Shown: positions 17,661 to 64,000, numbered from the stretch's first letter. The stretch: DNA of 64,000 bases from Mobula hypostoma (GCF_963921235.1 NC_086108.1:8370001-8434000), one strand, 5' to 3'. The notes: generated from the letters alone by a model not told the origin. Made by a program: numbers and translations.

Positions 17661-17693
17661 TGATCCCCAAACCTGGTAAAGAGCTGCCCCTTG

Positions 17694-17707
17694 GCGCCCT
17701 CTGGTGG
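17694..17707 (-). promoter_or_regulatory. CTCF binding motif (copy 1)
   Basis: Reverse complement CCACCAGAGGGCGC matches the CTCF core consensus CCASYAGRKGGCRS; binding itself not shown. Confidence 0.75.
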
Positions 17708-17739
17708 AGGAAGCAGGAGCCACCTCAGTTCAGAAGCGG

Positions 17740-18120
17740 AATGGTATTTGCAATTTTCCAGCCCCCAGGAACCATTCCAGTGTTCGGTGGTTCTTGAACG
17801 ATCAAGACTAATGCCTCCACTCTCTCTTCTGCTACCTCTTTCAGACCCTGCAGGTGTAGTTCAACTGGTCCAGGTGACTTGTCCACCTTCAGGCTTTTCA
17901 GTTTCCCAACCATTCCTCCTCAGTAACAGTGTGGCACTAACTTCTGCCCCTGACACTCCTGCTTTCCTGGCATTCTGCTGTCTCTCGCAGTGTAGACTGA
18001 TGCAAAAGACTTATTAAGTTCATCCACCATTTCTTTTCCCCCTGTTACTACCTCTCCAGTGTCATTTTTCCAGCGGTCCGATATCCACTCTCGTCTCTCT
18101 TTTACTCTTTATACATCTGA
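17740..18120 (-). mobile_element. Old CR1 ORF2 fragment (EN-RT linker), part of the amplified unit
   Basis: Minus-strand MVGKLKSLKVDKSPGP...LKEVAEERVEALVLI...GMVPGGWKIANTIPL is homologous to CR1 ORF2 KLKGLKADKSPGP...DWRVANVTPL. Confidence 0.8.
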
Positions 18121-18716
18121 GAAAAGTTCAGCAGGGCAGGCAGCATCTATGGAGGGGAATAAACAGTTCACGTTTCGAGCCGACACCCTTCATCAGGACT
18201 GGAAAGGAAGGGGGAAGATGCCTGAAAAAGAAATGAGGGGGTGGGGAGGAGGGCAAACTGGCAGGGGATGGGCGAGAGCAGGTGGGTGGTAAAGAAAGAA
18301 GTCGGGAGGTGACAGGTGGAAGAGGGCAAGGGCTGGAGAAGAAGGAATATGACAGGAAGGGACATGGACCATGGGAGAAAGGGAAGGAGCAGGGAAACCA
18401 AAGGGAGGTGATAGGCAGGTGAGGAGAGCGGGAACCAGAATGGGGAATGGGAAAAAGGGAACAGAGAAATTACCAGAAGTTAGAGAAATCTAATTTAAAC
18501 AGTCTACGCTTTGGAATAGAAAGATTGATGGTTTTATAAACGGGGAAAAAAATAAAATTCTGAGGTGCAGATGGACTTGTGCAGGATTCCCTAAAGGTTA
18601 AATTGCAGGTTGAGTCAGTGGTGAGGACGGCAAATGCAATGTTAGCATTCATTTCAAGAGGAGTAGAATATAAAAGCAAGGATGTAATGCTGAGGTGTTA
18701 CAATACATTGGTGAGG
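18121..18716. repeat. Palindrome spacer (Penelope-like repeat + CR1 RT fragment); copies at 35701-36288 and inverted at ~60740-61337
   Basis: Flanked by inverted arms ...TTTATACATCTGA / TCAGATGTATAAAG... Confidence 0.85.
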
Positions 18717-19129
18717 TCAGATGTATAAAGAGTAAAAGAGAGGCGAGAGTGTATATCGGACCGCTGGAAAAATGACACTGGAGAGGTAGTAACAGGGGGA
18801 AAAGAAATGGTGGATGAACTTAATAAGTCTTTTGCATCAGTCTACACTGCGGGAGACAGCAGAATGCCAGGAAAGCAGGAGTGTCAGGGGCAGAAGTTAG
18901 TGCCGCACTATCACTAAGGAGGAATGGTTGGGAAACTGAAAAGCCTGAAGGTGGACAAGTCACCTGGACCAGTTGAACTACACCTGCAGGGTCTGAAAGA
19001 GGTAGCAGAAGAGAGAGTGCAGACATTAGTCTTGATCGTTCAAGAACCACCGAACACTGGAATGGTTTTTGGGGGCTGGAAAATTGCAAATACCATTCCG
19101 CTTCTGAACTGAGGTGGCTCCTGCTTCCT

Positions 19130-19143
19130 CCACCAGAGGGCGC
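19130..19143 (+). promoter_or_regulatory. CTCF binding motif (copy 2)
   Basis: CCACCAGAGGGCGC. Confidence 0.75.
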
Positions 19144-19480
19144 CAAGGGGCAGCTCTTTACCAGGTTTGGGGAACAAAGTGAGGGAGAGGGGAGGGAAGG
19201 GGGAGGTGGAGGGCAGAGAGGATAGGCGAGCGAAGGGGTAGGGTAGGGTGTAGGGGAGAGGGGTAGAGGAGAGAGTGGGGAGGGGAAAGGAGAGGGGGAG
19301 GAGAGGGGGGTAGGTAGAAGAGGGGGTGGGGAGAGAGGGGGTAGAGGAGAGGGGGAGAAGAGAGAACGGAGAGGGCGAGGAGATGCGGAGTAGAGAGGAA
19401 GGGGAAGAGAGGTGAGTGGGGGGAGGAGAGAGGTCCTATGTCTATGGTTGTGTGCTGGAAACTCAGCTGAATCCCAATCA

Positions 19481-19812
19481 TTTTTTTTCTTTTTATTGAA
19501 TAAGTATACAAAAAGGTAAACCATATAAACATTAATACAATGTTAAAATATAATAAAATTCCAGAAGGTATCAATACCAAAAAAAATACTACAAACAATG
19601 TAATTTAAACATAAAAAACCAAGATAACATAATAGTATACTAAATTTTATATATATATCAATGGAAAAAAAAGAAAAAAAAAACCCCAAAAAAAAACCCA
19701 CCGTGCAACTAACTAAAAGCAAAGCAAAGCAATGGGCTAACTTGAAACCAAACAGAGTTAAACTTAAAATCACGTCCTCAATCCCGACCTCCATTAAAAA
19801 CAGTGAAAAAAA
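19481..19812 (-). mobile_element. 5'-truncated poly(A) retroelement insertion (L1-like 3' UTR), private to this unit copy
   Basis: Minus strand ends AATAAAAAGAAAAAAAA; replaces ~16 bp (TTTATTATCATTGATA) present in the other copies. Confidence 0.55.
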
Positions 19813-21415
19813 ACACAGCACCGTACTGATATATCAAGTTCAAAGTAAATTTTATTATTAGTTACATATATGTCACCATATACAATCCTGAAGTTGATTT
19901 TCTTGCAGGCATACTTAATAAATCAATTGAATAATAACTATAACAGAATCAATGAAAGACCACCCAACTTGGGTGTTTAACCAGAGTACAACAAACTGTG
20001 CAAATTCAAAAAGAAGAAATAATAATGGGTAAATAAGCAAAAAAGACATTGAGAACATGAGATGAAGAATCCTTGAAAGTGAGTCCATTGGTGTGGGAAC
20101 ATTTCAGTGATGGGTGAGTGAAGTTGTCCCCTTTGATTCAGGACCCTGATGGTTGAGGGGTAATAAATGTTCCTGAACCTGGTGGTGTGGGTCCAGAGAC
20201 CCCTGTACCTTCTACCTGATGACAGCAGTGAGAAGAGAGCATGGCCTGGGTGTTGGGGATCTCTGACGATGGATGCTGCTTTCCTACGACAGCGTTTCAT
20301 GTAGATGTGCTCAGTGGTAGGGAGGCAGGGTGCCTAAGACTTTTGCACAGGACTGTATTTGTCAACGTGGAGCAGAGAGTGAGCTTGTAAATCTGACAGG
20401 AGCAAAGGATGTTGGGGATGGTGAGTGTGGAGTGTGGGACAGGAAGGGAGTGCGAGGGGCGAGGGATGGTGCAGGTACAGACACACCCAGCCCTGAGACA
20501 CCAGGCAAGGCCATTTCATTCCAAACAACTGGTTTATTGATCATTACAGTATGTCTCTCTGATGCTTCCTGCTCCCTCCCCTCCCTCCTCTCCACGATTC
20601 CCCTCTCCCTGTCCCCCTCCCACTCTCAGTCATCGTCCATAATAGAGACACATATCAGAATCAGGTTTATCATATGTCATGAATTTGCTCTTTATTTTCC
20701 GGCAGCAGTACAGTGCGATACATAAAATTGCTGTAGTACGCTGCAGAAGTCTTGGGAACCCGGGCTACTGTAGACACCACTGTTGCTGACCATATCAAAG
20801 GTGGTGAAGAGTCAGCATAGAGGAGGGAGATGGAAAATCTGACTCAGTGGAGCCACAACTACAACCTCTCACTCAGTGTCAGCAAGCTGAAGGAGCCGAT
20901 TATAGACTTCGGGAGAAGGAAACCAGAGGTCCCTGAACCAGTCCTCACTGAAAGGTCAGAGCCGGGGTGGGGGGTGATATTAGCAACTTTAAATTCCTCA
21001 GTGTTATTATTTCGGAGAACCCGTCCTGCTCCCAGCATGCAGGGGCAACTACAGAGAAAGCATGGCATCATCTCTCCTTCCTTAGGAGTTTGAAGAGAGT
21101 CAGCATGACATCTAAAACTTTGACAGACTTCTATAGATGTGTAGTGGAGAATGTATTGACGGGCTGCATCATGGCCTGGTATGGACACACCAATGCCTTT
21201 GAATGGAAAATCCTACAATTCCTCTACCCCCTCTCTCCCCACCCCCTCTTCTACCTACCGCTCTCCTCCCCCTCTCCCCTCTCCTTTCCCCTCCCCACTC
21301 TCTCCCCTACCCCTACCCTACCCCCTCGCTCCCCTATCCTTGATCCCCTCCACCTCCCCCTCCCCTCCTCTCTCCCTCACTTTGTTCCCCAAACCTGGTA
21401 AAGAGCTGCCCCTTG

Positions 21416-21429
21416 GCGCCCTCTGGTGG
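21416..21429 (-). promoter_or_regulatory. CTCF binding motif (copy 3)
   Basis: GCGCCCTCTGGTGG on + strand. Confidence 0.75.
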
Positions 21430-22012
21430 AGGAAGCAGGAGCCACCTCAGTTCAGAAGCGGAATGGTATTTGCAATTTTCCAGCCCCCAGGAACCATTCC
21501 AGTGTTTGGTGGTTCTTGAACGATCAAGACTAATGCCTCCACTCTCTCTTCTGCTACCTCTTTCAGACCCTGGAGGTGTAGTTCAACTGGTCCAGGTGAC
21601 TTGTCCACCTTCAGGCTTTTCAGTTTCCCAACCATTCCTCCTTAGTAATTGTGCGGCACTAACTTCTGCCCCTGACACTCCTGCTTTCCTGGCATTCTGC
21701 TGTCTCCCGCAGTGTAGACTGATGCAAAAGACTTATTAAGTTCATCCACCATTTCTTTTCCCCCTGTTACTACCTCTCCAGTGTCATTTTTCCAGCGGTC
21801 CGATATCCACTCTCGCCAGAGGATGGGCATGATTCCCCGCCCCCCTTTTCTTTCTCCCTAGGCCTCCTGTCCCATGATCTTCTCATATCCCCTTTTGCCA
21901 ATCACCTGTCCAGCTCTTGGTTCCATCCCTCCCCCTCCTGTCTTCTCCTATCATTTTGGATCTCCACCTCCCCTTCCCACTTTCAAACCTCTTACTAGTT
22001 CTTCCTTCAGTT

Positions 22013-22048
22013 AGTCCTGACGAAGGGTCTCAGCCCGAAACGTCGACT
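22013..22048 (+). ncRNA. Minimal hammerhead ribozyme (Penelope-like repeat)
   Basis: AGTC-CTGACGA-AGGGTCTCAGCCC-GAAA-CG-TC-GACT with a GUC cleavage triplet. Confidence 0.65.
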
Positions 22049-22156
22049 GTACCTCTTCCTAGAGATGCTGCCTGGACTGCTGCGTTCACCAGCAACTTTG
22101 ATGTGAGTTGAGTGAATTTCCAGCATCTGCAGAATTCCTCGTGTTTATGCTTATCA

Positions 22157-22907
22157 CCCTGGACAACAAAGATTTTGCTTCCTGAATACTTTTGGGTGTT
22201 ATCTTAAAACTCCCTATCACACAGCATTTTTATTAAAAATCACCTATATTTGTTATTTCAATTCATAATTCAAGTCAGAATAACTGATGCCAAGATTAAG
22301 GAAGGCATTTCTGTTGGTTCACAAATCAAACAGGTTATCAATATTAGGCAATTTAAAGAACTTCTAGTGGGACCAGAGAAAATTGCATAGAAGGCATTCA
22401 AGGATGTTGTTGAAAACTTTCTTAGCAACTACAGACATCAAACTACGTGTAGCTGGTTAACATGCTTCAGGCATACAAAACCATGAAGTGCGACATGTCA
22501 CTAAAGATTAATTTTCTGCATTCCCATTTAGACTTCTTCCCTGTAAATGTTGGTGCTGTCAGTGACAAGCATGGTGAAAAACGGACATGGAGAAACGGTA
22601 TCAGGGTGACTGGAATCCATCAATGCTGGCTGATTATTGTTGGACACTTAAGTGAGAAACCTCAGACACTGAGTGCAAATGAAAATCATTGACAAAACAC
22701 TTTTTGCTCGGTTGAAATACTGCAAAGTGTCAGCACTGTTGTGTAATTAAATGCATTATATTCAATAAAAGTTAATTTTTTGTTTCTCCAAATCTCCACA
22801 TGATACAAGTAGTCTGAAATTCTATCTGTGTTCAGCTTCAAGTGGCCTATCATAAACAAAAAATCCTGAGGAAGGGAAACTTTAAAAAAAGAATTTGTTG
22901 TCCAGTG
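22157..22907 (+). mobile_element. Internally deleted Chapaev3-type (CMC) DNA transposon. Copies: 51859-52622(+), 58535-59304(+); partial 44680-45207(+), 48792-49330(-), 55979-56520(-)
   Basis: TIRs CCCTGGACAACAAA / TTTGTTGTCCAGTG; transposase C-terminus DAKIKEGI...MSLKINFLHSHLDFFP..GAVSDEHGERFHQDI..MEKRYQG.W.PSMLADYCWTL; superfamily assigned from recalled motif similarity. Confidence 0.65.
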
Positions 22908-23110
22908 TTGTCAAATATATTAGATACAACCTTGAGATTCATTTTCCAAGCAGCCACAAAACAAAGAAACACAATCCATGAAAACCGCACACAAGAAAGA
23001 CCAACAAACATCCAATGTGCGAATAAAGACCAAATCAAGTAAACAGTAAAAAATAAACAAGTACGACACGTGATATGAATCGTCGGGTTCCCGAAAGCAA
23101 GTACACAGTC

Positions 23111-23253
23111 ACAGAGTCAGTTCAGTGCAGAGTGAGTGACGATGGCTGCAGGCCACAGGTACAGAGTCAGTTCAGTGCAGAGTGAGTGACGATGGTGACA
23201 GGCCACAGGTACAGAGTCAGTTCAGTGCAGAGTGAGTGACGATGGTGACAGGC
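23111..23253 (+). repeat. 50-bp VNTR (ACAGAGTCAGTTCAGTGCAGAGTGAGTGACGATGGTGACAGGCCACAGGT)
   Basis: About 3 copies here, 2 at ~45412, 1 at ~52827 and 5 at ~59508-59775. Confidence 0.9.
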
Positions 23254-23714
23254 ATCCTGTCTGATGTCTGTAGTTGCTAAGAAAGTTTTCAACAACATCC
23301 TTGAAAGTTTTCACAACATCATGCCCGTCCTCTGGGTTCCCCCCTCCCCATTTTCCTTCTCCCTGGGCCTCCTGTCCCATAGTCCTCTCATATCCCTTTT
23401 GACAATCACCTATCCAGATCTTGGCTCCATCCCTCCCCCTCCAGTCTTCTCCTATCATTTTGGATCTCCCACTCCCACTTTCAAATCTCTTACTAGCTCT
23501 TCCTTCAGTTACTCCTGACGAAGGGTCTTAGCCCAAAACGTTGACTGTACCTCTTCCTAGAGATGCTGCCTAGCCTGCTGTGATAAACATACGCTGACTT
23601 TGACTCTGGCGAGCCAGTGTTCAACACCCCTCCCCCAATAATCTAACACCAAACACATCCAACTCCAATTGACTATCCACTGGGGAGGGGCAGCCCTCTT
23701 TCAAAAGAAAATGG

Positions 23715-23910
23715 GGGCATCACGGTAGCATAGTGGTCAGCCCAACCCTACTATAGGTCGGGGCGTTAGAGTTCCATCCTGTGCATTCCTTTCCGTGAGC
23801 AGATAGGTTTTCTCCCACATTCCAAAGACGCACCGGGTAGTAGGTTAATAGGTCATTGTAATCGGAGGATTGCTGGGTGGCGTGGCTCGAAGGGCCTAAT
23901 CTGTAAATAA
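23715..23910 (+). mobile_element. Decayed V-SINE-like element (inverted copy at ~44070-44270)
   Basis: Degenerate tRNA-like head and TTTTCTCCCACATTCCAAAGACG...GTAGGTTAATAGG body. Confidence 0.45.
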
Positions 23911-24041
23911 ATATATATGTACTTTGATAATAAAATTTACTTTGAACTTTTGAAAATCAGACAGAAACTGGAGATTCAGGTGTTGAACTGATAATTTTGC
24001 CCTGCCCTTTGGATGAGACAATGTCAGAAGTAGAATTGCTT

Positions 24042-24620
24042 TGAAATGTTAAGAACTTCATTAAAATCGATCGTGGATATTGGTCATCTTTTGGTTTTGG
24101 TCTTAGAGCTCTATGTGCCCGCTCAATTTCAATTGGTCGAACCTCCTCTTCCATTTGCAAAACATCCGGGATCTATCTTTGAAAAAATTCTATTGGTTTT
24201 TCTCCCTCCGTACCTTCTTTAATACCAACAATTTTAATATTATTACGTCTACTGAAATTTTCCAACATGTCCACTTTCTCCAAGAGTCGATTTCTTTCCA
24301 AGTTCCAGACAAGCAGATCATTTTCTGTTTTTTCCACTCTATCATTCATATGCCCCATTGCTCCTTCCATCTTCTGAAGCTTCTTATCCATTTTGTCCTG
24401 TCTTTCCATAACTCTATTATAGCACATCTTCATATCGCTAAGCTCTTCTCTTACTTTTCTTAGTTCAGCCGTTAATTGCAATATAGCCTCTCTTATGTCT
24501 CTATCATCTCCTTTATTTCCAATTGCTTCCAATTCTTCCTCCTCTTCTTCATCTGTGTTCTCTGCAGAATCCAAATCTGACTCTGAGTCATTTTCAATTG
24601 CAGTGGCTGTCGGTTCTTGT
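24042..24620 (-). pseudogene. Inverted L1 ORF1p fragment (coiled coil + RRM start)
   Basis: LENFSRRNNIKIVG..EGTEG and IEIERAHRAL...PRSIL.KF motifs; frameshifted here but open in the 42908-43525 copy. Confidence 0.8.
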
Positions 24621-27013
24621 AGTTTACAAAGTAATAAATCTCCAGGAGAGGATGGTTTTCCACCTGAATTTTATAAAAAATTTAAAGATTTATTATTTCC
24701 TCTCTTTATGGAACTAATACGTCAAGCAGAAAAAATACATAAACTTCCAGAATCTTTTTCAACAGCGATTGTAATAGTATTGCCAAAAAAAGACAGAGAT
24801 CCTATGAAATCAACATCATACAGGCCTATTTCTTTATTGAATACGGATTATAAAATAATAGCAAAAATTTTATCGAATAGATTATCTAAATATTTACCAA
24901 AATTAATACATATGGATCAAACAGGATTTATTAAAACTAGACAATTGGCAGATAATGTAACCCGGCTACTCAGTATAATTCATTTGGCACAAAAAAGGGA
25001 CGAGAAGAGTATAGTAGTAGCTTTGGATGCAGAAAAAGCATTTGATAGATTAGAATGGAATTTTTTATTTAAAGTATTAGAAAAATATGGGTTAGGAACA
25101 TCTTTTATAAATTGGATTAAAACTTTAAATTCTAACCCTAAGGCTAAAGTAGTGACAAACTCTCAAATTTCAACACCATTCCAGTTAAAAAGGTCAACTA
25201 GACAAGGTTGTCCATTATCACCTGCTTTATTTGTACTGGCGATAGAGCCATTAGCAGAACTAATCAGAATTGATCCAGATATCATGGGTTTTAGAGTTAA
25301 TCAGGAGGAATATAAAATGAATCTTTTTGCCGATGATGTTTTGATCTACTTAACAAACCCACAACATTCGTTACATAAATTATCTTCTAGATTGGATGAA
25401 TATGGGAAGGTATCAGGTTACAAAATAAATTGGGATAAAAGTGAAATTTTACCTCTTACTAAAGGAGACTATAGTCAATGTCGATTAGTAACCCAATTTA
25501 GATGGCCGGTAAATGGTATAAAGTATTTATGTATCAGACTTGATAATGATGTAAAGAATTTATATAAATTTAATTATTTACCACTATTGAAAAAAATTCA
25601 AGAAGATTTTGACAAATGGATGATACTACCAATAACATTAGTAGGTAGAGTCAATGTTGTAAAAGTGAATATATTTCCTCGATTACAGTATTTGTTTCAA
25701 ACATTATCAATACAATTGCCACAGCAGTTTTTTCAAGAGTTAAATAAATGTGTGAGAAAATTTCTTTGGAAAGGTAAAATGTCAAGAATATCATTGGAAA
25801 AATTGACATGTAAATTTGGGTTAGGAGGGTTTCAACTTCCAAACTTCAAAAACTATTATAAAGCAAATCAACTTAGATTTATTGCATCTTTCTTCGATGA
25901 TCGAAAACCAGCATGGATTAAAATAGAATTAGACAAGATAGGAGAAAATAGACCTGAAGATTTTATATATAAATGGGAATCTAAATGGATACGGGAAAAG
26001 AAAGAATCTCCTATATTAACACATTTGATTGATCTATGGAATAAGATAAATGTTGATAATGAAACACAGAAATCTCTATTAGCAAGGAGACCTTTGTTCC
26101 AAAACAGACTTATTCCTTTTACAATGGACAAACAATTTTTATATAATTAGTACCAAAAAGGGATTAAATTTATAGGAGATTGTTTTGAACAAGGTATATT
26201 GATGTCATTTGAACAATTAAAGGATAAATATAAAATATCAAATAATATTTTCTTTTGTTACTTTCAATTAAGGGCTTACTTAAAAGGTAAGCTGGGTCAA
26301 ACAATGTTTTTGCCAAAACCTAATGAAATTGAAATTTTAATTCAAAAAGGGAAAATTAAAAAATTTATTTCTTGTATGTATAATTTGATTCAAGAACAGA
26401 CAATTAAACAAGGAACCCATAAGTCAAAGCAAAAATGGGAAACAGATCTGAATATTAATATTGATGAAACAAATTGGTCAAGACTCTGTCTTGACAGTAT
26501 GACAAATACAATAAATGTTCGACTAGATCAGTACAATATAATTTTTTACACCAATTATATATTACACCACAAAAAATAAATAGATTAAATTCAAATCTAT
26601 CCGATAAATGCTTTCGGTGTAATCAAGAAATTGGTACTTTTTTACATTCTACTTGGTCTTGTTTTAAAATTCAACCCTTTTGGATAAATTTAAGAGTCTT
26701 ATTGGAACAAATTACTGGAACTCAACTTCCACATAACCCTGTATTATTTCTATTAGGTGATATTGAAGGGATAAAACTGAAACTTAAATTGAATAAATAT
26801 CAGAAAGAATTTATAAAAATTGCATTGGCAGTAGCTAAGAAGACTATAGCAGTTACTTGGAAATCTGATTCGTATTTAAGTATGGATCGTTGGAATAATG
26901 AAATGGCTAGTTCTATTCCACTCGAAAAAATTACTTATAATTTAAGAGATAAATATGTAACATTTTTGAATATTTGGCACCCTTATTTACAAAAGATAGG
27001 ATGGCATATTTAA
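24621..27013 (+). pseudogene. L1 ORF2p fragment (RT + C-terminal CCHC region, no EN), with a stop and a frameshift
   Basis: NKSPGEDG, YRPISLLNTDYKI, DQTGF, LDAEKAFD, TRQGCPLSP, LFADD; TAG at 26148-26150. Confidence 0.85.
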
Positions 27014-27374
27014 ATGCTCCGATAAAGAGCTTGGTCCCTTGGGGAAAGTAACGAATAATTATACCAAATTTATTTTGAATCCCATGGAGCATGTGGAAAC
27101 CTTCCAATACCCAGGCGGCTCTTTTCTTTTTTTTCTCTTTTCTTTCCTTTTAGGTAGGACTATATATGGGGGGGGGGTTAAGGGGAGGGGGGAGGGTAGA
27201 TTTTATCTTTTCATGTATTCTTTTTGAAAACTCAATAAAAATTACAAAAAAAAGTAGAATCGCTTAGATTTTCAAAGTGCCGAGCTCCTTCCCTCTATGA
27301 CCCCTACCACACAACAAGTCAGGACTATCCACTCATTCCTCCCCAAAGCCACAAGGACACAGAGGGTGGAGGAC

Positions 27375-28030
27375 ATCTGGAGTATTGCGTTCAGTTCTGG
27401 TCGCCTCATTATAGGAAAGATGTGGAAGCTTTAGAGAGGGTGCACGCAAGTTTGCCATCATCCTGTCTCCATTAGAGAGCGTGTGTTTATGTGGCTAGAT
27501 TGAGCGAGGTACAGCTTCGCTCTTTGGAGCAAAGGAGGATGAAAGGTGACTTGATAGAAGTGTACAAGATGAAAAGAGGCATGGATCAAGTGGACAGCTA
27601 GAAACTTTTTCCCAGGGTGGAAATGGCTAATACCAGGGGGCATAATTTTAAGGCATTTGGAGGAAAATATAGGTGAGGACAATGTCAGAGGTAGCTTTTT
27701 TAAAAACACAGGCGTTATGGAGCGCCTGGAATCCACTGGCACAGGCGGTGGTAGAAACAGATCGATTAGGAAGATTTAAGAGATCCTTAAAGATAGGCAC
27801 ATGGATGACAGCCATGTGGGAGGGAGGGATTAGACTGGTTTTGAAAATTAGGCACAACATTGTTAACTGAAGAGGCTAGACTGTGCTGGAATGTTCTACA
27901 TTCTAGGTTTTGCTATTTTGGATCTTCCTGTCTAGAAGGGTTAGATTGATCTTCGAGTAGGGTAAAAGGTCAGGACAACACTGTGGACTGAAGGGCCTAG
28001 ACGGTGCTGTAATGATTTGTGTTCTATGAT
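27375..28030 (+). mobile_element. Decayed CR1 3' fragment (inverted copy at ~39475-40130)
   Basis: HLEYCVQFWSPHYRKDVEALERV trace followed by the 3' tail. Confidence 0.7.
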
Positions 28031-28214
28031 AGTTCTTTGTTCCAGAACGGGGGACGGATTGGTGGACCAGAACATCAAGAAAATACCGAAAATGAAAACA
28101 AAAGTTTGAGGAGACAAGATTGAAGGTCAGAGCAGACAGAATATTTACTGGTGATCTTCCCTCAGTAAGTGGAGCCCAAACCTGCTTTTTGATATTGGAT
28201 ATCACCGTCGGAAT

Positions 28215-28490
28215 GCATCTGAACATTTCCAATCATCGTCACGAGGGGTTGATGCAAGCTGTGTCTCCAAGAGGACATGGCCACCGTCATCAGGAGGAAA
28301 CGTTGGATACGGATCGGGCACGTGATGAGAAGAGAGGTCAGCTCCATCTTCAAGGCAGCACCTCACTGGACCTCAGAAGGGCGAAGGAAACACGGGAAAC
28401 CAAAGACAACTCAGCACCGCACCGGAGAGGCAGAAATGAGGACCCTGAACCTCAGCTGACACACAATAGAGAAGACAGCCAAGGACAGCT
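28215..28490 (+). mobile_element. RTE-clade LINE 3' fragment (inverted copy at ~39010-39290)
   Basis: IRRKRWIRIGHVMRRE...WTSEGRRKHGKPKTT resembles the RTE ORF C-terminus. Confidence 0.65.
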
Positions 28491-28966
28491 GACTCATATC
28501 ACCAAATCATATCGTTTCCTCGCGGCCCGGTGGTTGGGGACCGCTGCAGTAGAGGCTCGACTCAGACTTCACACTAAAATGGGCAATGCCATGGCAGATT
28601 AAAACTAACCTCTGTCTCTTTGCTTAGTAACATTCCTAGTTTTGTTTAACCCTTCTGAGTCATTGTGTGATCCTGCGGTTGAGTCTGAAGATGCAGTGTG
28701 ACATTTTGAGGTCAAGAGTACGTCTTGTTTCCTGGGAAACCATTCAACAGTCTTATAACAGGAAGATAGAAGCTGTCTTTGAGCCTGGTAGTGTGTGCTT
28801 TCAGGCTTTTGTCGCTTCTGCTCACTGAGAGAGGGGAGAAGAGAGAATGTCTGGGGTGGATGGGATCTTTGATTCTGCCAGAAACCATTATTGTCCACTT
28901 TTGTAATTGATCATGCTTTTATGTATTGCTCTGAACTGCTGCTGCAAAGTGACCAATATTACCACA

Positions 28967-29037
28967 TACAGTGCTGTGCAAAAGTCTTAGGCACATATAC
29001 ACAGCCAGGGTGCCTAAAACTTTTGCACACGACTGTA
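28967..29037. mobile_element. Tc1-like MITE copy (another at 38466-38536; half copies at ~20327 and ~62615)
   Basis: TA-CAGTGCTGTGCAAAAGTCTTAGGCAC...GTGCCTAAAACTTTTGCACACGACTG-TA. Confidence 0.65.
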
Positions 29038-46911: not shown

Positions 46912-46925
46912 CCACCAGAGGGCGC
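46912..46925 (+). promoter_or_regulatory. CTCF binding motif (copy 6)
   Basis: CCACCAGAGGGCGC. Confidence 0.75.
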
Positions 46926-51714: not shown

Positions 51715-51750
51715 AGTCCTGACGAAGGGTCTCAGCCCGAAACGTCGACT
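51715..51750 (+). ncRNA. Minimal hammerhead ribozyme (duplicate of 22013-22048)
   Basis: AGTCCTGACGAAGGGTCTCAGCCCGAAACGTCGACT. Confidence 0.6.
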
Positions 51751-54048: not shown

Positions 54049-54062
54049 CCACCAGAGGGCGC
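54049..54062 (+). promoter_or_regulatory. CTCF binding motif (copy 8)
   Basis: CCACCAGAGGGCGC. Confidence 0.75.
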
Positions 54063-57000
54063 CAAGGGGCAGCTCTTTACCAGGTTTGGGGAACAAAGTG
54101 AGGGAGAGGGGAGGGGAGGGGGAGGTGGAGGGGAGAGAGGATAGGGGAGCAAAGGGGTAGGGTAGGGGTAGGGGAGAGAGTGGGGAGGGGAAAGGAGAGG
54201 GGAGAGGGGGAGGAGAGGGGGTAGGTAGAAGAGGGGGTGGGGAGAGAGGGGGGTAGAGGAGAGGGGGAGAAGAGAGAACGGAGAGGGCGAGGAGATGCGG
54301 AGAAGAGAGGAAGGGGAAGAGAGGTGAGTGGGGGGAGGAAAGAGGTCCTACGTCTATGGTTGTGTGCTGGAAACTCAGCTGAATCACAATCATTTATTAT
54401 CATTGATACACAGCACTGTGCTTATATATTACGTTCAAAGTAAATTTTATTATCAATTATATGTCACCATATACAATCCTGAAGTTGATTTTCTTGCAGG
54501 CATACTTAATAAATCAATTGTATAATAACTATAACAGAATCAATGAAAGACCGCCCAGTTTGGGTGTTTAACCAGAGTGCAACAAACTGTGCAAATTCAA
54601 AAAGAAGAAATAATAATGGGTAAATAAGCAAAAAAATATTGAGAACATGAGATGAAGAATCCTTGTAAGTGAGTCCATTGGTGTGGGAACATTTCAATGA
54701 TGGGGCGAGTGAAGTTGTCCCCTTTGATTCAGGAGCCTGATGGTTGAGGGGTAATAAATGTTCCTGAACCTGGTGGTGTGAGTTCTGAGACCCCTGTACC
54801 TTCTACCTGATGACAGCAGTGAGAAGAGAGCATGGCCTGGGTGTTGGGGATCTCTGACGATGGATGCTGCTTTCCTACGACAGCGTTTCATGTAGATGTG
54901 CTCAGTGGTAGGGAGGCCTTTACCCGTAATGGACCGAACCATATTCACTACTTTTTGTAGGATTTTCCATTCAGAGGCATTGGTGTGTCCATACCAGGCC
55001 GTGATGCAGCCCGTCAATACATTCTCCACTACACATCTATAGAAGTCTGTCAAAGTTTTAGATGTCATGCTGAATCTCTTCAAACTCCTAAGGAAGGAGA
55101 GATGATGCCATGCTTTCTCTGTAGTTGCCCCTGCATGCTGGGAGCAGGACGGGTTCTCCGAAATAATAACACTGAGGAATTTAAAGTTGCTAATACCACC
55201 CCCACCCCGGCTCGGACCTTTCAGTGAGGACTGGCTCAGGGACCTCTGGTTTCCTTCTCCCAAAGTCTATAATCGGCTGCTTCAGCTTGCTGACACTGAG
55301 TGAGAGGTTGTAGTTGTGGCTCCACTGAGTCAGATTTTCCATCTCCCTCCTCTATGCTGACTCTTCACCACCTTTGATATGGTCAGCAACAGTGGTGTCT
55401 ACAGTAGCCCGGGTTCCCAAGACTTCTGCAGCGTACTACAGCAATTTTATGTATCGCACTGTACTGCTGCCGCAAAATAAAGAGCAAATTCATGACATAT
55501 GATAAACCTGATTCTGATATGGGTCTCTATTGTGGACCGGATACATGTATAGGGAATATGTCGGGGTGCAGACTGGTTACATGTATAGGGAATGTGTCGG
55601 GGTGCAGACCGGATACATGTACAGGAATGTGTCGGGTGCAGACTGGATACATGGATAGGGAATGTGTCGGGTGCAGATTGGATACATGTACCATCGTCAC
55701 TCCCTCAGCACTGATCCGACCCCATACCTGTGGCCTGCAGCCATCGTCACTCACTCTGCACTGAACTGACTCTGTCACTGTCTACTTGCTTTCGGGAACC
55801 CAACGATTCATATCACATTTCGCACTTGTTTATTTTTTATTGTTTAATTGATTTGGTCTTTATTCGCACATTGGATGTTTGTTGGTCTTTCTTGTGTGCG
55901 GTTTTCATGGATTGTGTTTCTTTGTTTTGTGGCTGCCTAGAAAATGAATCTCAAGGTTGTATCTAATATATTTGACAACACTGGACAACAAATTCTTTTT
56001 GAAAGTGTCCCTTCCTCAGGATTTTTTGTTTATGATAGGCTGCTTGAAGCTGAACACAGATATAATTTCAGACTACTTGTATCATGTAGAGATTTGGAGA
56101 AACAAAAAATTAACTTTTATTGAATATAATGCATTTAATTACACAACAGTGCTGACACTTTGCAATATTTCAACCGAGCTAAAAGTGTTTGTCAATGATT
56201 TTCATTTGTACTCAGTGTCTGAGGTTTCTCACTTAAGTGTCCAGCAATAATCAACCAGCATTGATGGATTCCAGTCACCCTGATACCGTTTCTCCATGTC
56301 CGCAATGTCCTGGTGAAACCTTTCGCCATGCTCGTCACTGACAGCACCAACATTTACAGGGAAGAAGTCGGAATGGGAATGCAGAAAATTAATCTTTAGT
56401 GACATGTCGCACTTCATGGTTTTGTATGCCTGAAGCATGTTAACCAGCTACACGTAGTTTGATGTCTGTAGTTGCTAAGAAAGTTTTCAACAACATACTT
56501 GAATCCTTCAACAATATCCTTGAAAGCTTTCAACAACATGATGTCCATCCTCTGGGTTTTTCCCCCCTTGTAAATCTGACAGGAGCAAAGGATGTTGGGG
56601 ATGGTGAGTGTGGAGTGCGGGACAGGAAGGGAGTGCGAGGGGCGAGGGATGGTGCAGGTACAGACACACCCAGCCCTGAGACACCAGGCAAGGTCATTTC
56701 ATTCCAAACAACTGGTTTATTGATCATTACAGAATGTCTCTCTGATGCTTCCTGCTCCCTCCCCTCCCTCCTCTCTACGATTCCCCTCTCCCTGACCCCC
56801 TCCCACTCTCAGTCATCGTCCATAATAGAGACCCATATCAGAATCAGGTTTATCATATGTCATGAACTTGCTCTTTATTTTGCGGCAGCAGTACAGTGCG
56901 ATACATAAAATTGCTGTAGTACGCTGCAGAAGTCTTGGGAACCCGGGCTATTGTAGACACCACTGTTGCTGACCATATCAAAGGTGGTGAAGAGTCAACA

Positions 57001-58291
57001 TAGAGGAGGGAGATGGAAAATCTGACTCAGTGGAGCCACAACTACAACCTCTCACTCAGTGTCAGCAAGCTGAAGGAGCCGATTATAGACTTTGGGAGAA
57101 GGAAACCAGAGGTCCCCGAACCAGTCCTCACTGAAAGGTCAGATCTGGGGTCGGGGGTGGTATTAGCAACTTTAAATTCCTCAGTGTTATTATTTCGGAG
57201 AACCCGTCCTGCTCCCAGCATGCATGGGCAACTACAGAGAAAGCATGGCATCATCTCTCCTTCCTTAGGAGTTTGAAGAGATTCAGCATGACATCTAAAA
57301 CTTTGACAGACTTCTATAGATGTGTAGTGGAGAATGTATTGACGGGCTGCATCACGGCCTGGTATGGACACACCAATGCCTTTGAATGGAAAATCCTACA
57401 AAAAGTAGTGAATATGGTTCGGTCCATTATGGGTAAAGGCCTCCCTACCACTGAGCACATCTACATGAAACGCTGTCGTAGGAAAGCAGCATCCATCGTC
57501 AGAGATCCCCAACACCCAGGCCATGCTCTCTTCTCACTGCTGTCATCAGGTAGAAGGTACAGGGGTCTCAGAACTCACATCACCAGGTTCAGGAACAGTT
57601 ATTACCCCTCAACCATCAGGCTCCTGAATCAAAGGGGACAACTTCACTCGCCCCATCACTGAAATGTTCCCACACCAATGGATTCACTTTCAAGGATTCT
57701 TCATCTCATGTTCTCAATATTTTTTTGCTTATTTACCCATTATTATTTCTTCTTTTTGAATTTGCACAGTTTGTTGCACTCTGGTTAAACACCCAAGTTG
57801 GGCGGACTTTTATTGATTCTGTTATAGTTATTATTCAATTGATTGCAAGATGTATTTACAACATGGCTGCAAGAAAATCAACTTCAGGATTGTATATGGT
57901 GACATATATGTAATTAACAATAAAATTTACTGTGAACTTGATATATAAGCACAGTGCTGTATATCGGTGATAATAAATGATTGGGATTCAACTGAGTTTC
58001 CAGCACACAACCATAGACATAGGACCTCTCTCCTCCCCCCGCTCACCTCTCTTCCCCTTCCTCTCTTCTCCGCATCTCCTCCCCCTCTCCGTTCCCTCTT
58101 CTCCCCCTCTCCTCTACACCCTCTCTCCCCACCCCCTCTTCTACCTACCCCCCTCTCCTCCCCCTCTCCCCTTTCCTTTCTCCTCCCCACCATCTCCCCT
58201 ACCCCTACCCTACCCCCTCGCTCCCCTATCCTCTCTCCCCTCCACCTCCCCCTCACTTTGTTCCCCATACCTGGTAAAGAGCTGCCCCTTG

Positions 58292-58305
58292 GCGCCCTCT
58301 GGTGG
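58292..58305 (-). promoter_or_regulatory. CTCF binding motif (copy 9)
   Basis: GCGCCCTCTGGTGG on + strand. Confidence 0.75.
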
Positions 58306-58390
58306 AGGAAGCAGGAGCCACCTCAGTTCAGAAGCGGAATGGTATTTGCAATTTCCACTTTCAAACCTCTTACTAGTTCTTCCTTCAGTT

Positions 58391-58426
58391 AGTCCTGACG
58401 AAGGGTCTCAGCCCGAAACGTCGACT
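58391..58426 (+). ncRNA. Minimal hammerhead ribozyme (duplicate)
   Basis: AGTCCTGACGAAGGGTCTCAGCCCGAAACGTCGACT. Confidence 0.6.
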
Positions 58427-61400
58427 GTACCTCTTCCTAGAGATGCTGCCTGGACTGCTGCGTTCACCAGCAACTTTGATGTGAGTTGAGTGAATTTCCA
58501 GCATCTGCCGAATTCCTCGTGTTTATGCTTATCACCCTGGACAACAAAGATTTTGCTTCCTGAATACTTTTGGGTGTTATCTTAAAAACTCCCTATCACG
58601 CAGCATTTTTATTAAAAATCACCTATATTTGTTATTTCAATTCATAATTCAAGTCAGAATAACTGATGCCAAGATTAAGGAAGGCATTTCTGTTGGTTCA
58701 CAAATCAAACAGGTTATCAATATTAGGCAATTTAAAGAACTTCTAGTGGGACCAGAGAAAATTGCATAGAAGGCATTCAAGGATGTTGTTGAAAACTTTC
58801 TTAGCAACTACAGACATCAAACTACGTGTAGCTGGTTAACATGCTTCAGGCATACAAAACCATGAAGTGCGACATGTCACTAAAGATTAATTTTCTGCAT
58901 TCCCATTTAGACTTCTTCCCTGTAAATGTTGGTGCTGTCAGTGACGAGCATGGTGAAAGGTTTCACCAGGACATTGTGGTCATGGAGAAACGGTATCAGG
59001 GTGACTGGAATCCATCAATGCTGGCTGATTATTGTTGGACACTTAAGTGAGAAACCTCAGACACTGAGTGCAAATGAAAATCATTGACAAAACACTTTTA
59101 GCTCGGTTGAAATACTGCAAAGTGTCAGCACTGTTGTGTAATTAAATGCATTATATTCAATAAAAGTTAATTTTTTGTTTCTCCAAATCTCCACATGATA
59201 CAAGTAGTCTGAAATTCTATCTGTGTTCAGCTTCAAGTGGCCTATCATAAACAAAAAATCCTGAGGAAGGGACACTTTCAAAAAAAAAAATTTGTTGTCC
59301 AGTGTTGTCAAATATATTAGATAAACCCGTGAGATTCATATTCCAGGCAGCCACAAAACAAAGAAACACAATCAATGAAAACCGCACACAAGAAAGACCA
59401 ACAAACATCCAATGTGCGAATAAAGACCAAATCAAGTAAACAATAAAAAATAAACAAGTGCGACATGTGATATGAATCGTCGGGTTCCCGAAAGCAAGTA
59501 CACAGTCACAGAGTCAGTTCAGTGCAGAGTGAGTGACGATGGTGACAGGCCACAGGTACAGAGTCAGTTCAGTGCAGAGTGAGTGACGATGGTGACAGGC
59601 CACAGGTACAGGGTCAGTTCAGTGCAGAGTGAGTGACGATGGCTGCAGGCCACAGGTACAGGGTCAGTTCGGTGCAGAGTGAGTGACGATGGCTGCAGGC
59701 CACAGGTACAGGGTCAGTTCGGTGCAGAGTGAGTGACGATGGTGACAGGCCACAGCTGTGAGTCAGTTCAGTGCTAAGGTGAGCAAAGCCTCCCAAATTA
59801 GTGAGCCTCCACCCTCAGCTTCGATGCTTTAATCTTTTTAATCTGGCTCAGCACTTAAATTGGCTAAATACCGATTTGTTTTTCCCTCTTGGGTCCGGGT
59901 CCCCCAGCCCAAACTGGCCCAAAGTTGCGGCCTAGCCCCAAGTCTGCTCCAGCGATGTCCACTATGGCCGTCCCTGCATTCTTGAGAGAAAGAAAGGGTG
60001 CTGCACCCCTTCACAAGATTTGGCTGCTGGTGAAACGATCACATCCTTTCATTTGCTATACCCCTGCCCTTTAGTAGAGATTTATGTACCATTAGTTGTG
60101 TTTTGAATTCTGCTATCTGCCCGCCACTGGTCTCTGGTCTACTCAGCGGCCACTCGTTTCAAGTCCACTTCCTCTTCCCATTCCCACATGTCGGTCCATG
60201 GCTTCCTCTACTGTTATGAGGAGGCCACACTCGGGGTGAAGGAGCAACACCTCATATTCCATCTGGGTAGCCTCCAACCTCACAGCATGAACATGGATTT
60301 AAGACCATAAGACATCGGATCAGAATGGGGCCATTCGGTCCCTTGAGCCCACTTTGCCATTTCATCATGGCTGACCCATTTCCCTCTCAAACCCATTCTC
60401 CTGCCTTCTCCCCATAACTTTTCACTCCCTGACTTATCAAGGATCTATCACCCTCTGCTTTGAATGCATTCATTTACTTGACCTCCACAGCCTGCCTGTG
60501 GCAACGAATTCCACAGATTCACCACCCTCGAGCTAAAGAAATTCTTCCTCATCTCCGTTGTATTCTGAGGCTGTGCCCTCTGATCCTAGACTCTCCCTCT
60601 ATCGGAATCACCCTCTCCATATCCACTCTAAGGAGGCCTTTCAACATTTGATTGGTTTCATTGAGATCCCCCATTCTTCTGAATTACGGTGAGTACAGGC
60701 CCAGAGCCATGAAAAACTCCATGAAAAACTGGTGAGTGAGACCTCACCAATGTATTGTAACACCTCAGTATTACATCCTTGCTTTTATATTCTACTCCTC
60801 TTGAAATGAATGCTAACATTGCATTTGCCGTCCTCACCACTGACTCAACCTGCAAATTAACCTTTAGAGAATCCTGCACAAGTCCATCTGCACCTCAGAA
60901 TTTTATTTTTTTCCCCGTTTATAAAACCATCAAACGTTCTATTCCAAAGCGTAGACTGTTTAAATTAGATTTCTCTAACTTCCGGTAATTTCTCTGTTCC
61001 CTTTTTCCCATTCCCCATTCTAGTTCCCGCTCTCCTCACCTGCCTATCACCTCCCTTTGGTTTCCCTGCTCCTTCCCTTTCTCCCACGGTCCATGTCCCT
61101 TCCTGTCATATTCCTTCTTCTCCAGCCCTTGCCCTCTTCCACCTGTCACCTCCCGACTTCTTTCTTTACCACCCACCTGCTCTCGCCCATCCCCTGCCAG
61201 TTTGCCCTCCTCCCCACCCCCTCATTTCTTTTTCAGGCATCTTCCCCCTTCCTTTCCAGTCCTGATGAAGGGTGTCGGCTCGAAACGTGAACTATTTATT
61301 CTCCTCCATAGATGCTGCCTGCCCTGCTGACCTTTTCTCAGATGTATAAAGAGTAAACGAGAGGCGAGAGTGGATATAGGACCGCTGGAAAAATGACACT

Positions 61401-61748
61401 GGAGAGGTAGTAACGGGGAAAAGAAATGGTGGATGAACTTAATAAGTCTTTTGCATCAGTCTAAACTGCGGGAGACAGCAGAATGCCAGGAAAGCAGGAG
61501 TGTCAGGGGCAGAAGTTAGTGCCGCACTATCACTAAGGAGGAATGGTTGGGAAACTGAAAAGCTTGAAGGTGGACAAGTCACCTGGACCAGTTGAACTAC
61601 ACCTGCAGGGTCTGAAAGAGGTAGCAGAAGAGAGAGTGCAGACATTAGTCTTGATCGTTCAAGAACCACCGAACACTGGAATGGTTCCTGGGGGCTGGAA
61701 AATTGCAAATACCATTCCGCTTCTGAACTGAGGTGGCTCCTGCTTCCT

Positions 61749-61762
61749 CCACCAGAGGGCGC
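61749..61762 (+). promoter_or_regulatory. CTCF binding motif (copy 10)
   Basis: CCACCAGAGGGCGC. Confidence 0.75.
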
Positions 61763-64000
61763 CAAGGGGCAGCTCTTTACCAGGTTTGGGGAACAAAGTG
61801 AGGGAGAGAGGAGGGGAGGGGGAGGTGGAGGGGATCAAGGATAGGGGAGCGAGGGGGTAGGGTAGGGGTAGGGGAGAGAGTGGGGAGGGGAAAGGAGAGG
61901 GGAGAGGGGGAGGAGAGGGGTAGGTAGAAGAGGGGGTGGGGAGAGAGGGGTTAGAGGAGAGGGGGAGAGGAGGGAACGGAGAGGAGGAAGAGATGCGGAG
62001 AAGAGAGGAAGGGGAAGAGAGGTGAGTGGGGGGAGGAGAGAGGTCCTACGTCTATGGTTGTGTGCTGGAAACTCAGCTGAATCTCAATCATTTATTATCA
62101 TTGATACACAGCACTGTGCTTATATATTAAGTTCAAAGTAAATTTTATTATCAATGATATGTCACCATATACAATCCTGAAGTTGATTTTCTTGCAGGCA
62201 TACTTAGTAAGTCAATTGAATAATAACTATAACAGAATCAATGAAAGACCACCCAACGTGAGTATTTAACCAGAGTACAACAAACTGTGCAAATTCAAAA
62301 AGAAGAAATAATAATGGGTAAATAAGCAAAAAAAATTGAGAACATGAGATGAAGAATCCTTGAAAGTGAGTCCATTGGTGTGGGAACATTTCAGTGATGG
62401 GGCGAGTGAAGTTGTCCCCTTTGATTCAGGAGCCTGATGGTTGAGGGGTAATAAATGTTCCTGAACCTGGTGATGTGGATCCTGAGGCTCCTGTACCTTC
62501 TACCTGATGACAGCAGTGAGAAGACAGCATGGCCTGGGTGTTGAGGATCTCTGACGATGGATGCTGCTTTCCTACGACAGCGTTTCATGTAGATGTGCTC
62601 AGTGCTAGGCAGGCAGGGTGCCTAAGACTTTTGCACAGGACTGTATTTGTCAACGTGGAGCAGAGAGAGAGCTTGTAAATCTGACAGGAGCAAAGGATGT
62701 TGGGGATGGTGAGTGTGGAGTGTGGGACAGGAAGGGAGTGCGAGGGGCGAGGGATGGTGCAGGTACAGACACAACCAGCCCTGAGACACCAGGCAAGGCC
62801 ATTTCATTCCAAACAACTGGTTTATTGATCATTACAGTATGTCTCTCTGATGCTTCCTGCTCCCTCCCCTCCCTCCTCTCCACGATTCCCCTCTCCCTGT
62901 CCCCCTCCCACTCTCAGTCATCGTCCACAATAGAGACCCATATCAGAATCAGGTTTATCATATGTCATGAATTTGCTCTTTATTTTGCGGCAGCAGTACA
63001 GTGCGATACATAAAATTGCTGTAGTACGCTGCAGAAGTCTTGGGAACCCGGGCTATTGTAGACACCACTGTTGCTGACCATATCAAAGGTGGTGAAGAGT
63101 CAGCATAGAGGAGGGAGATGGAAAATCTGACTCAGTGGAGCCACAACTACAACCTCTCACTCAGTGTCAGCAAGCTGAAGGAGCCGATTATAGACTTCGG
63201 GAGAAGGAAACCAGAGGTCCCTGAGCCAGTCCTCACTGAAAGGTCAGAGCCGGGGTGGGGGGTGGTATTAGCAACTTTAAATTCCTCAGTGTTATTATTT
63301 CGGAGAACCCGTCCTGCTCCCAGCATGCAGGGGCAACGACAGAGAAAGCATGGCATCATCTCTCCTTCCTTAGGAGTTTGAAGAGATTCAGCATGACACC
63401 TAAAACTTTGACAGACTTCTATAGATGTGTAGTGGAGAATGTATTGACGGGCTGCATCACGGCCTGGTATGGACACACCAATGCCTCTGAATGGAAAATC
63501 CTACAAAAAGTAGTGAATATGGTTCGGTCCATTATGGGTAAAGGCCTCCCTACCACTGAGCACATCTACATGAAACGCTGTCGTAGGAAAGCAGCATCCA
63601 TCGTCAGAGATCCCCAACACCCAGGCCATGCTCTCTTCTCACTGCTGTCATCAGGTAGAAGGTACAGGGGTCTCTGGACCCACACCACCAGGTTCAGGAA
63701 CATTTATTACCCCTCAACCATCAGGGTCCTGAATCAAAGGGGACAACTTCACTCACCCATCACTGAAATGTTCCCACACCAATGGACTCACTTTCAAGGA
63801 TTCTTCATCTCATGTTCTCAATGTCTTTTTTGCTTATTTACCCATTATTATTTCTTCTTTTTGAATTTGCACAGTTTGTTGTACTCTGGTTAAACACCCA
63901 AGTTTGGTGGTCTTTCATTGATTCTGTTATAGTTATTATTCAATTGATTTATTAAGTATGCCTGCAAGAAAATCAACTTCAGGATTGTATATGGTGACAT

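What the first reader, a model, noticed from the sequence alone, without database searches (positions are those of the whole stretch)
17671..61785. Amplified array of ten CTCF sites in an invariant 86-bp core: candidate chromatin super-anchor or insulator
Seen: the amplicon is nearly all TE debris, but each unit carries ACCTGGTAAAGAGCTGCCCCTTG-GCGCCCTCTGGTGG-AGGAAGCAGGAGCCACCTCAGTTCAGAAGCGGAATGGTATTTGCAATTT. This stretch reads identical in all 10 copies (motifs at 17694-, 19130+, 21416-, 35273-, 36702+, 46912+, 51117-, 54049+, 58292-, 61749+), including both CpGs. Adjacent sequence differs between copies by substitutions and indels. The window ends part-way into another unit. Known: CCACCAGAGGGCGC matches the CTCF core consensus, and clustered CTCF sites act as strong loop anchors (mammalian DXZ4, FIRRE, IgH 3' CBEs). 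Inference: the CTCF site may be the selected cargo of a lineage-specific amplification that builds an architectural boundary.
Basis: partly seen in the sequence, partly recalled or inferred. Interest (0 to 1): 0.8.

Follow-up and report, generated by a model that had tools for sequence, protein, structure and literature searches.

The report
Ten-copy CTCF motif in scrambled amplicon
In what is probably a ray genome, one DNA motif matching the binding site of the genome-folding protein CTCF stands in ten copies, five each way, inside a scrambled patch of duplicated transposon debris; it most likely rode along with faulty DNA copying, but its unusually clean conservation leaves open that the copies act as a chromatin boundary.

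Summary
In detail: ten perfect CTCF-consensus motifs at the stated places, in an 86-bp stretch identical in all ten. It is the longest invariant run (91 columns) in a 1.8-kb segment that is present in 8-10 copies throughout, so the motif is not a unique copy-number peak. The excess is modest: p about 0.001-0.05 that the motif sits in such a run, and 0.002-0.54 for a run anywhere, depending on the model. CpG retention is ordinary (12 of 23 invariant). About 37 bp of the core is old LINE sequence; the motif itself is not in a dispersed repeat. The amplicon is a patchwork of inverted and direct fragments with 0-4 bp junction overlaps and mosaic copies, not a head-to-tail macrosatellite; orientations are 5+/5-. 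A relative (run X10) holds one copy whose core diverged like its flank, including one motif base. Best reading: an older CTCF-type site amplified as a passenger, likely bound and weakly constrained; a selected super-anchor is about 15%. No binding, methylation or Hi-C data could be tested. The scan noted a different CTCF-motif array in another fish (e1-7791257), not this sequence.

The parts
11118..64000 (.). Patchwork amplicon: direct and inverted fragments of a few ancestral segments; runs past the window end
36290..38900 (-). Uninterrupted copy of the ancestral unit, used as reference (2.6 kb; about 1.8 kb of it present in 8-10 copies)
17671..17756 (-). 86-bp core copy 1; CTCF-consensus motif 17694-17707
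19081..19166 (+). Core copy 2; motif 19130-19143
21393..21478 (-). Core copy 3; motif 21416-21429
35250..35335 (-). Core copy 4; motif 35273-35286
36653..36738 (+). Core copy 5; motif 36702-36715; the copy on which public runs were laid
46863..46948 (+). Core copy 6; motif 46912-46925
51094..51179 (-). Core copy 7; motif 51117-51130
54000..54085 (+). Core copy 8; motif 54049-54062
58269..58354 (-). Core copy 9; motif 58292-58305; cut by a junction at 58354, which sets the right edge of the 86 bp
61700..61785 (+). Core copy 10; motif 61749-61762
36739..36996 (+). Homopurine tract with G-quadruplex consensus directly downstream of the motif (example copy); 173-274 bp long and present in 10 of 10 copies, G4 consensus starting 39-81 bp after the motif
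18768..19118 (+). Old degenerate LINE ORF2 fragment (example copy), ending about 12 bp before the motif and supplying about 37 bp of the core
   Evidence: tblastn E 6e-24, 42% identity; blastn 61% over 18925-19117
12444..12844 (+). Motif-free LINE-derived fragment that also reaches ten copies (second copy-number peak)
12845..17221 (+). Near full-length LINE (esterase-type ORF1, endonuclease-RT ORF2; 'CR1' label recalled) inserted in the unit; second copy 30343-34737, 97.8% identical
23913..28612 (+). Two-copy block with another LINE RT; inverted copy 38891-43569, 98.1% identical

Best explanation
One pre-existing CTCF-consensus motif, lying between an old LINE fragment and a G-rich purine tract, stands in ten copies of both orientations because the 1.8-kb segment around it was repeatedly re-copied, likely by template switching or end joining, and the copies have likely exchanged sequence by gene conversion; the motif is likely a real CTCF site that came along as a passenger and is probably under weak constraint now. 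Shown: copy number and patchwork layout, junctions with little or no homology, mosaic copies, a single-copy counterpart in organism D. Inferred: the repair mechanism, a role of the G4/purine tract in stalling forks, CTCF binding (about 65%), and constraint. If bound, the mixed orientation would make a two-sided insulating cluster as a by-product, not a one-way anchor.
For: Copy number is a plateau of 8-10 over unit positions about 713-2560, with two peaks of 10, only one holding the motif. Ten distinct informative junctions show 0-4 bp overlap or 1-22 inserted bases and none shows long homology (rows dropped are named in the full report). Orientation is 5+/5-, spacing 1.4-13.9 kb. 164 of 561 pairs of shared sites fail the four-gamete test, and left and right distances are uncorrelated (Spearman 0.17, p 0.33, 35 pairs). 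A purine tract with G4 consensus is in 10 of 10 copies. Organism D has one 515-bp contig at depth 13.3 (other listed contigs of that run 12.8-19) spanning LINE fragment, motif and far flank; 5 listed substitutions in about 54 visible core bases against at most 19 in 171 flank bases, Fisher p 0.81. Perfect consensus match. A CTCF orientation code exists in skate (PMC10115646, passages). 111 of 144 motif-predicted IgH sites were occupied (PMC6746451, passages).
Against: The motif lies in the single longest invariant run of 1803 columns. Under neutral mutation plus uniform conversion this happens in 0.7% of 2500 simulations, and in 3.4-4.7% with regional rate variation; permutations give 0.0001-0.025. 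A pure passenger does not predict that. All ten copies keep motif and purine tract together, and the cut at 58354 spares the motif. Breakpoints are not concentrated in the purine tract (one of the junctions seen, 21219, lies in it), so the G4 trigger is unsupported by position. No excess of incompatibility across the core, so a conversion hotspot at the core is not shown.
Confidence: 0.55

Rival explanations
1. Selected cargo: extra CTCF copies were favoured because they build a strong boundary or super-anchor, and purifying selection keeps every core intact.
For: Zero events in the core against 6-7 expected; motif-anchored p 0.001-0.05. Motif plus G4 tract kept in 10 of 10 copies, and G4s are reported to reinforce CTCF insulation (PMC6691997, abstract). 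Conservation extends to 34-57 bp around DXZ4/ICCE motifs (PMC6125249, passages). The single copy of organism D lacks the perfect consensus at one base.
Against: Equal copy number of a motif-free fragment. The invariant run reaches 55 bp upstream of the motif, about 37 bp of it LINE debris that CTCF is not expected to read (footprint size recalled). Four listed changes in the 18 bp upstream of the motif in organism D. Mixed polarity. No gene found in the window for a boundary to serve. A fixed motif +/-20 bp window gives only p 0.01-0.04 and the 14-bp motif alone 0.33-0.37, before any correction for the many windows scanned.
Confidence: 0.15
2. Nothing functional: the motif is unbound or irrelevant, and the invariant run is the tail of a patchy neutral process (conversion plus uneven mutation rate) picked after the fact.
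For: A run of 91 or more somewhere in the unit occurs in 11% of uniform and 38-54% of rate-heterogeneous simulations, and in 25-33% of coarse event permutations. Other runs of 64, 62, 56 and 52 columns exist. 12 of 23 CpGs are invariant. The core diverged at the flank rate in organism D.
Against: The run falls on the only match with at most two mismatches inside the high-copy unit. A perfect match is rare by chance (0.04 per shuffled window). 13 of 14 motif bases appear kept in organism D among the rows listed (uninformative alone, p 0.55).
Confidence: 0.2
3. Cause rather than cargo: a bound loop anchor with an adjacent G4 tract is a recurrent break site, so the segment is amplified and homogenised because breaks and their repair start there.
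For: Loop anchors are enriched for breaks, SV breakpoints and some recombination hotspots (PMC6066925, abstract). Most skate rearrangements fall at TAD boundaries (PMC10115646, passage). The core lies within the high-copy plateau and the copies are mosaic.
Against: Fragment ends are spread over the unit, not piled at the core. Site pairs spanning the core are not more incompatible than pairs at like distance elsewhere (12/37 vs 74/218 at 300-600 bp; 30/107 vs 38/185 at 600-1000 bp). Break repair would be expected to add indels at the site, and there are none.
Confidence: 0.1

Closest known systems
DXZ4/Dxz4, ICCE and FIRRE tandem repeats (PMC6985041 passages; PMC6125249 passages)
   Same: Many copies of one CTCF motif in a repeated unit of fast-changing sequence; conservation reaching beyond the motif core.
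   Different: Those are tandem arrays, with a CpG-rich 3-kb unit (DXZ4), common polarity (Dxz4) and motif conservation across mammals. This is an irregular CpG-poor patchwork of TE debris, 5+/5-, and the core is not spared in the one relative seen.
IgH 3'CBE superanchor (PMC7930373 passages)
   Same: Ten CTCF motifs in one cluster.
   Different: The ten 3'CBEs all converge on the VH sites and insulation is shown. Here orientation is mixed, the sites are near-identical paralogues spread over 44 kb, and no partner array or gene is known.
Dynamic CTCF clusters at TAD borders (Kentepozidou 2020, PMC6945661 passages)
   Same: Lineage-specific gain of sites beside an older one; most neighbours here are under 10 kb apart, the paper's cluster distance (7 of 9 gaps).
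   Different: There the gains are separate new sites, 70% in the orientation of the old site, and the word 'duplication' does not occur in the main text. Here the gains are duplicates of one site, half of them inverted.
Complex rearrangements by iterative template switching (DUP-TRP/INV-DUP, FoSTeS/MMBIR; search listing only; features recalled)
   Same: Nested direct and inverted copies, junctions with little or no homology and short inserts.
   Different: Here many rounds, apparently old (large two-copy blocks about 98% identical), overlaid with LINE insertion and sequence exchange; end joining cannot be excluded.
TE-borne CTCF sites such as rodent B2 SINEs (recalled, not read)
   Same: Motif multiplied together with transposon sequence.
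   Different: The motif is not part of a dispersed family; it spread by local duplication.

Membership tests
CTCF binding site | Match to the core consensus | tested here: met
   14/14 to CCASYAGRKGGCRS in 10 copies; consensus as printed in PMC6746451. No position weight matrix was on hand.
CTCF binding site | Occupied by CTCF/cohesin in vivo | not testable with these tools
   No ChIP, CUT&Tag or ATAC run could be recognised; library descriptions were blank.
CTCF binding site | Motif CpG unmethylated | tested here: inconclusive
   Only by proxy: both core CpGs invariant, but so are 12 of 23 CpGs in the unit.
CTCF binding site | Constraint above flanks | tested here: inconclusive
   Within the array p 0.001-0.05; against organism D none, Fisher p 0.81.
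CTCF binding site | Upstream M2/U motif | not tested
   No matrix or printed consensus was obtained.
DXZ4/ICCE/FIRRE-type macrosatellite anchor | Head-to-tail tandem organisation | tested here: not met
   Patchwork of direct and inverted fragments, spacing 1.4-13.9 kb.
DXZ4/ICCE/FIRRE-type macrosatellite anchor | Common motif polarity | tested here: not met
   -,+,-,-,+,+,-,+,-,+; Dxz4 polarity.
DXZ4/ICCE/FIRRE-type macrosatellite anchor | CpG-rich unit | tested here: not met
   CpG observed/expected 0.22-0.55 in 32 of 32 2-kb bins.
DXZ4/ICCE/FIRRE-type macrosatellite anchor | Array and motif conserved across species | tested here: inconclusive
   Flanks appear amplified in organism B; single copy with one motif change in organism D; motif not covered in B or C.
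IgH 3'CBE-type superanchor | About ten sites all facing a partner array | tested here: not met
   Count fits, orientation does not.
IgH 3'CBE-type superanchor | Hi-C insulation or stripe | not testable with these tools
   No contact data can be analysed here.
Dispersed TE carrying a CTCF motif | Motif inside a high-copy family | tested here: not met
   Summed contig depth 73.6 in the motif bin of run X1 against up to 10^4-10^6 in TE-derived bins; only the upstream 37 bp is LINE.
Template-switch type complex duplication | Mixed-orientation nested fragments with short or no junction homology | tested here: met
   does not separate template switching from end joining.

The most novel reading that the evidence does not exclude
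A single ancestral CTCF site with an adjacent G-quadruplex tract was multiplied in one ray lineage by scrambled inverted duplication and is kept intact in every copy because the resulting ten-plus, two-way array is a new strong chromatin boundary: an architectural element born from rearrangement debris rather than from a tandem macrosatellite or a transposon family.
Probability: 0.15. Interest if true: 0.75.

Novelty: new variant of a known kind. Interest (0 to 1): 0.4.

Why it matters
CTCF clusters are known to arise from tandem repeats, transposons or separate new sites. A cluster made by local inverted duplication of one site, with a single-copy relative at hand as the 'before' state, is a ready natural test of whether copying a CTCF site builds a boundary and whether selection then protects it. 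I found no such case in the searches (a library that lacks most subscription papers). If binding and insulation fail, it is an ordinary patchwork duplication that happens to carry a motif.

Tried and rejected
No whole genome is held for this window, so flanking genes and copies outside it could not be read. No Rfam match and no tRNA gene. Pfam scan of 142 of 142 stop-free frames from 1-2300 and 3570-11118 and of 150 of 183 frames from the non-redundant amplicon parts: no match reached a curated cut-off, so no host exon was identified; short exons would be missed. Core as a small exon: considered because it follows a pyrimidine tract, set aside because the splice signals look weak by eye and copies face both ways; not tested on RNA. 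No RNA holder listed: no evidence either way. The motif bin has no cover in runs X5 (organism B, 84% read) and X9 (organism C): a hole proves nothing and is not used. Assembly artefact: rejected, since the large duplicates are 97.8-98.1% identical; only 457 bp at 99.8% and 100 bp at 100% are near-identical. A second, overlapping CTCF-like match with three mismatches lies in each core, but such matches are at chance level (121 vs 108 +/- 11). Conversion hotspot at the core: not supported. CpG retention as a sign of hypomethylation: not significant. Look-ups of earlier findings by sequence and by the word CTCF in this genome gave nothing. PMC5973138 was seen in a listing only. No supplements were read.

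Full report
1. The observation. All ten descend from one site, so this counts once. With up to two mismatches there are 12 further matches, at chance level and none in the high-copy unit. Orientation is -,+,-,-,+,+,-,+,-,+ and gaps run from 1.4 to 13.9 kb.

2. What the array is. From 11118 to the window end the DNA is a patchwork of direct and inverted fragments. Mapped on one uninterrupted copy (36290-38900), 1803 columns have 8 or more copies. Copy number is a plateau with two peaks of ten: the motif region and a motif-free LINE-derived fragment at 12444-12844. The motif is thus not singled out by copy number. Large two-copy blocks are 97.8-98.1% identical, which argues against a haplotype artefact. 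Of 40 approximate junction positions, 16 had both donors resolved, 23 had at most one side and 1 was skipped. I dropped six of the 16: three LINE-insertion ends (12844, 17221, 63945), two in short tandem repeats (48352, 59655) and one duplicate (53688). The other ten show 0-4 bp of overlap or 1-22 inserted bases. That fits template switching or end joining, not recombination between long repeats; the two cannot be told apart here. No host exon was found (142 of 142 and 150 of 183 frames scanned). The scan's notes call this a devil-ray genome and describe a Kunitz-exon gene with conversion-homogenised introns 37 kb beyond the window (e1-7814524) and another patchwork duplication 8 Mb away (e1-9841337). 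Both are unchecked AI notes, used as leads only.

3. Anatomy of the core. On the motif-forward strand the order is: old LINE ORF2 fragment, 12 bp, motif, about 23 bp, purine tract. The LINE match (42% amino-acid identity to the intact ORF2 in the window, E 6e-24) ends about 12 bp before the motif and supplies about 37 of the 86 bp. The purine tract is 173-274 bp long and carries a G4 consensus 39-81 bp after the motif in 10 of 10 copies. The upstream edge of the 86 bp is a junction in copy 58292; without it the run is 91 bp.

4. Is the invariance more than chance? The core has 0 variable columns; the other four regions have 8.1%, 14.2%, 24.9% and 9.5%. It is the longest invariant run of the 1803 columns; the next are 64, 62, 56 and 52. 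Permutations give, for a run of 91 or more anywhere, 0.002-0.013 (columns), 0.014-0.043 (events defined by carrier set) and 0.25-0.33 (coarse clusters); for the motif lying in such a run, 0.0001-0.001, 0.0008-0.003 and 0.015-0.025. The copies are mosaics: 164 of 561 pairs of shared sites fail the four-gamete test, and left and right distances do not correlate; the purine tract, where repeat mutation is likely, contributes to that count, but pairs outside it are also incompatible at 21-43% in eight of nine distance bins (0 of 6 in the ninth). I therefore simulated neutral mutation with conversion over 26 parameter sets and refined one that fits the singleton and incompatibility shares (2500 runs each): motif in a run of 91 or more in 0.7% (uniform rate) and 3.4-4.7% (gamma-distributed regional rates, shapes chosen by me, not fitted); a run anywhere in 11% and 38-54%. 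A window fixed beforehand gives 0.01-0.04 for motif +/-20 bp and 0.33-0.37 for the 14 bp. Both core CpGs are kept, but so are 12 of 23 in the unit. The signal is real but modest, and the window was picked from many.

5. Relatives. One search listed 24 runs; organisms A (share 0.56-0.60) and B (0.28-0.35) hold the stretch. I laid 4 of the 24 on 36290-37500. In X1 (organism A, possibly the window's own source) one 166-bp contig without differences covers the core at depth 62, where other listed contigs have 8-17; the motif bin has summed depth 73.6 against up to 10^4-10^6 in TE-derived bins. Depth is only a rough guide, but it fits a handful to ten local copies and not a dispersed family. In X10 (organism D) one 515-bp contig at depth 13.3 (others 12.8-19) aligns to 36513-36743 with 24 substitutions and 9 gaps, and to 36995-37122: a single-copy counterpart. 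Five of its differences are listed in the part of the core not hidden by LINE reads: four in the 18 bp upstream of the motif and one in the motif (36713 C>A, the CpG C). 111 rows were not shown, so five is a minimum. Five in about 54 against at most 19 in 171 is no difference (Fisher p 0.81). The site therefore predates the amplification, and its surroundings were not spared between species. Either D's site is relaxed, or the upstream bases are not under base-specific constraint. In X5 (organism B) flank contigs have depth 78-201 where its long contig has 42, so the flanks seem amplified there too; the motif bin is uncovered, which proves nothing.

6. How it most likely works. A CTCF-type site next to a G-rich tract lay in a segment that was re-copied many times in both orientations and then mixed by conversion. 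The motif is a perfect consensus, skates use a CTCF orientation code (PMC10115646, passages), and 111 of 144 motif-predicted IgH sites were occupied, so binding of at least some copies is likely (about 65%, my estimate). Weak selection or protection of bound copies, helped by conversion and chance, would give the clean core. With five sites each way a bound cluster would block loop extrusion from both sides (inference from the convergence rule). That selection drove the amplification is possible but not required by anything seen (15%). A wholly neutral reading stands at about 20%, and the site as the source of breaks at about 10% (PMC6066925, abstract; not supported).

7. Comparison and novelty. 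It could work like DXZ4, ICCE or the IgH 3'CBEs but is not a member of either kind: not tandem, not of one polarity, not CpG-rich (papers seen as passages). Clusters at mouse TAD borders gain separate sites, 70% in the old orientation (PMC6945661, passages). G4s are reported to reinforce CTCF insulation (PMC6691997, abstract). Searches for a CTCF cluster made by inverted duplication, or for one in rays, gave no such case (listings only; the mobulid genome preprint listed has no occurrence of 'ctcf'). PMC13399162 was seen as passages and bioRxiv 10.64898/2026.10.19.759930 as abstract; neither changed the reading. The scan noted an 11-copy same-direction CTCF minisatellite in another cartilaginous fish (e1-7791257), a different sequence and layout. 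TE family labels (CR1, L2/Rex, L1-like), the CTCF footprint size and the B2 example are recalled, not from calls.

8. Verdict. Observation confirmed; interpretation partly supported. A lineage-restricted ten-copy, two-way cluster of one CTCF-consensus site, most likely amplified as a passenger, with a modest hint of constraint and a clear test available. Interest 0.4; new variant of a known kind.

Noticed in passing
window 12845-17221 and 30343-34737: Near full-length LINE with esterase-type ORF1 and a 1014-aa open ORF2 frame in the first copy, inserted into the unit before the 6-kb duplication; the empty site is present in other copies.
   Followed up: partly
window 19870-20326 vs 63544-64000: 457 bp at 99.8% identity between otherwise 95-97% copies, and 58255-58354 identical to 51080-51179: likely recent conversion tracts.
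   Followed up: no
window 24107-26150 and 42259-43525: A LINE RT frame with an inverted 5' piece (coiled-coil frame on the other strand) fused in front of it, like a 5'-inverted LINE insertion.
   Followed up: no
window 2325-3566: 37-bp G-rich minisatellite with higher-order structure and many G4 consensus matches.
   Followed up: no
window 23104-23253, 45405-45528, 59501-59774; 48350-48504, 55535-55691: Short 50-bp and 35-bp tandem repeats with different copy numbers between duplicates, sitting at fragment junctions.
   Followed up: no
window 36743-36995 vs run X10 record 11: The purine tract is about 250 bp in this genome but about 160 letters in organism D's single copy, so it seems to have grown in the amplified lineage.
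   Followed up: no
each core, e.g. window 36712-36725: A three-mismatch CTCF-like match overlaps the main motif, 10 bp downstream of its start; chance level on its own.
   Followed up: partly
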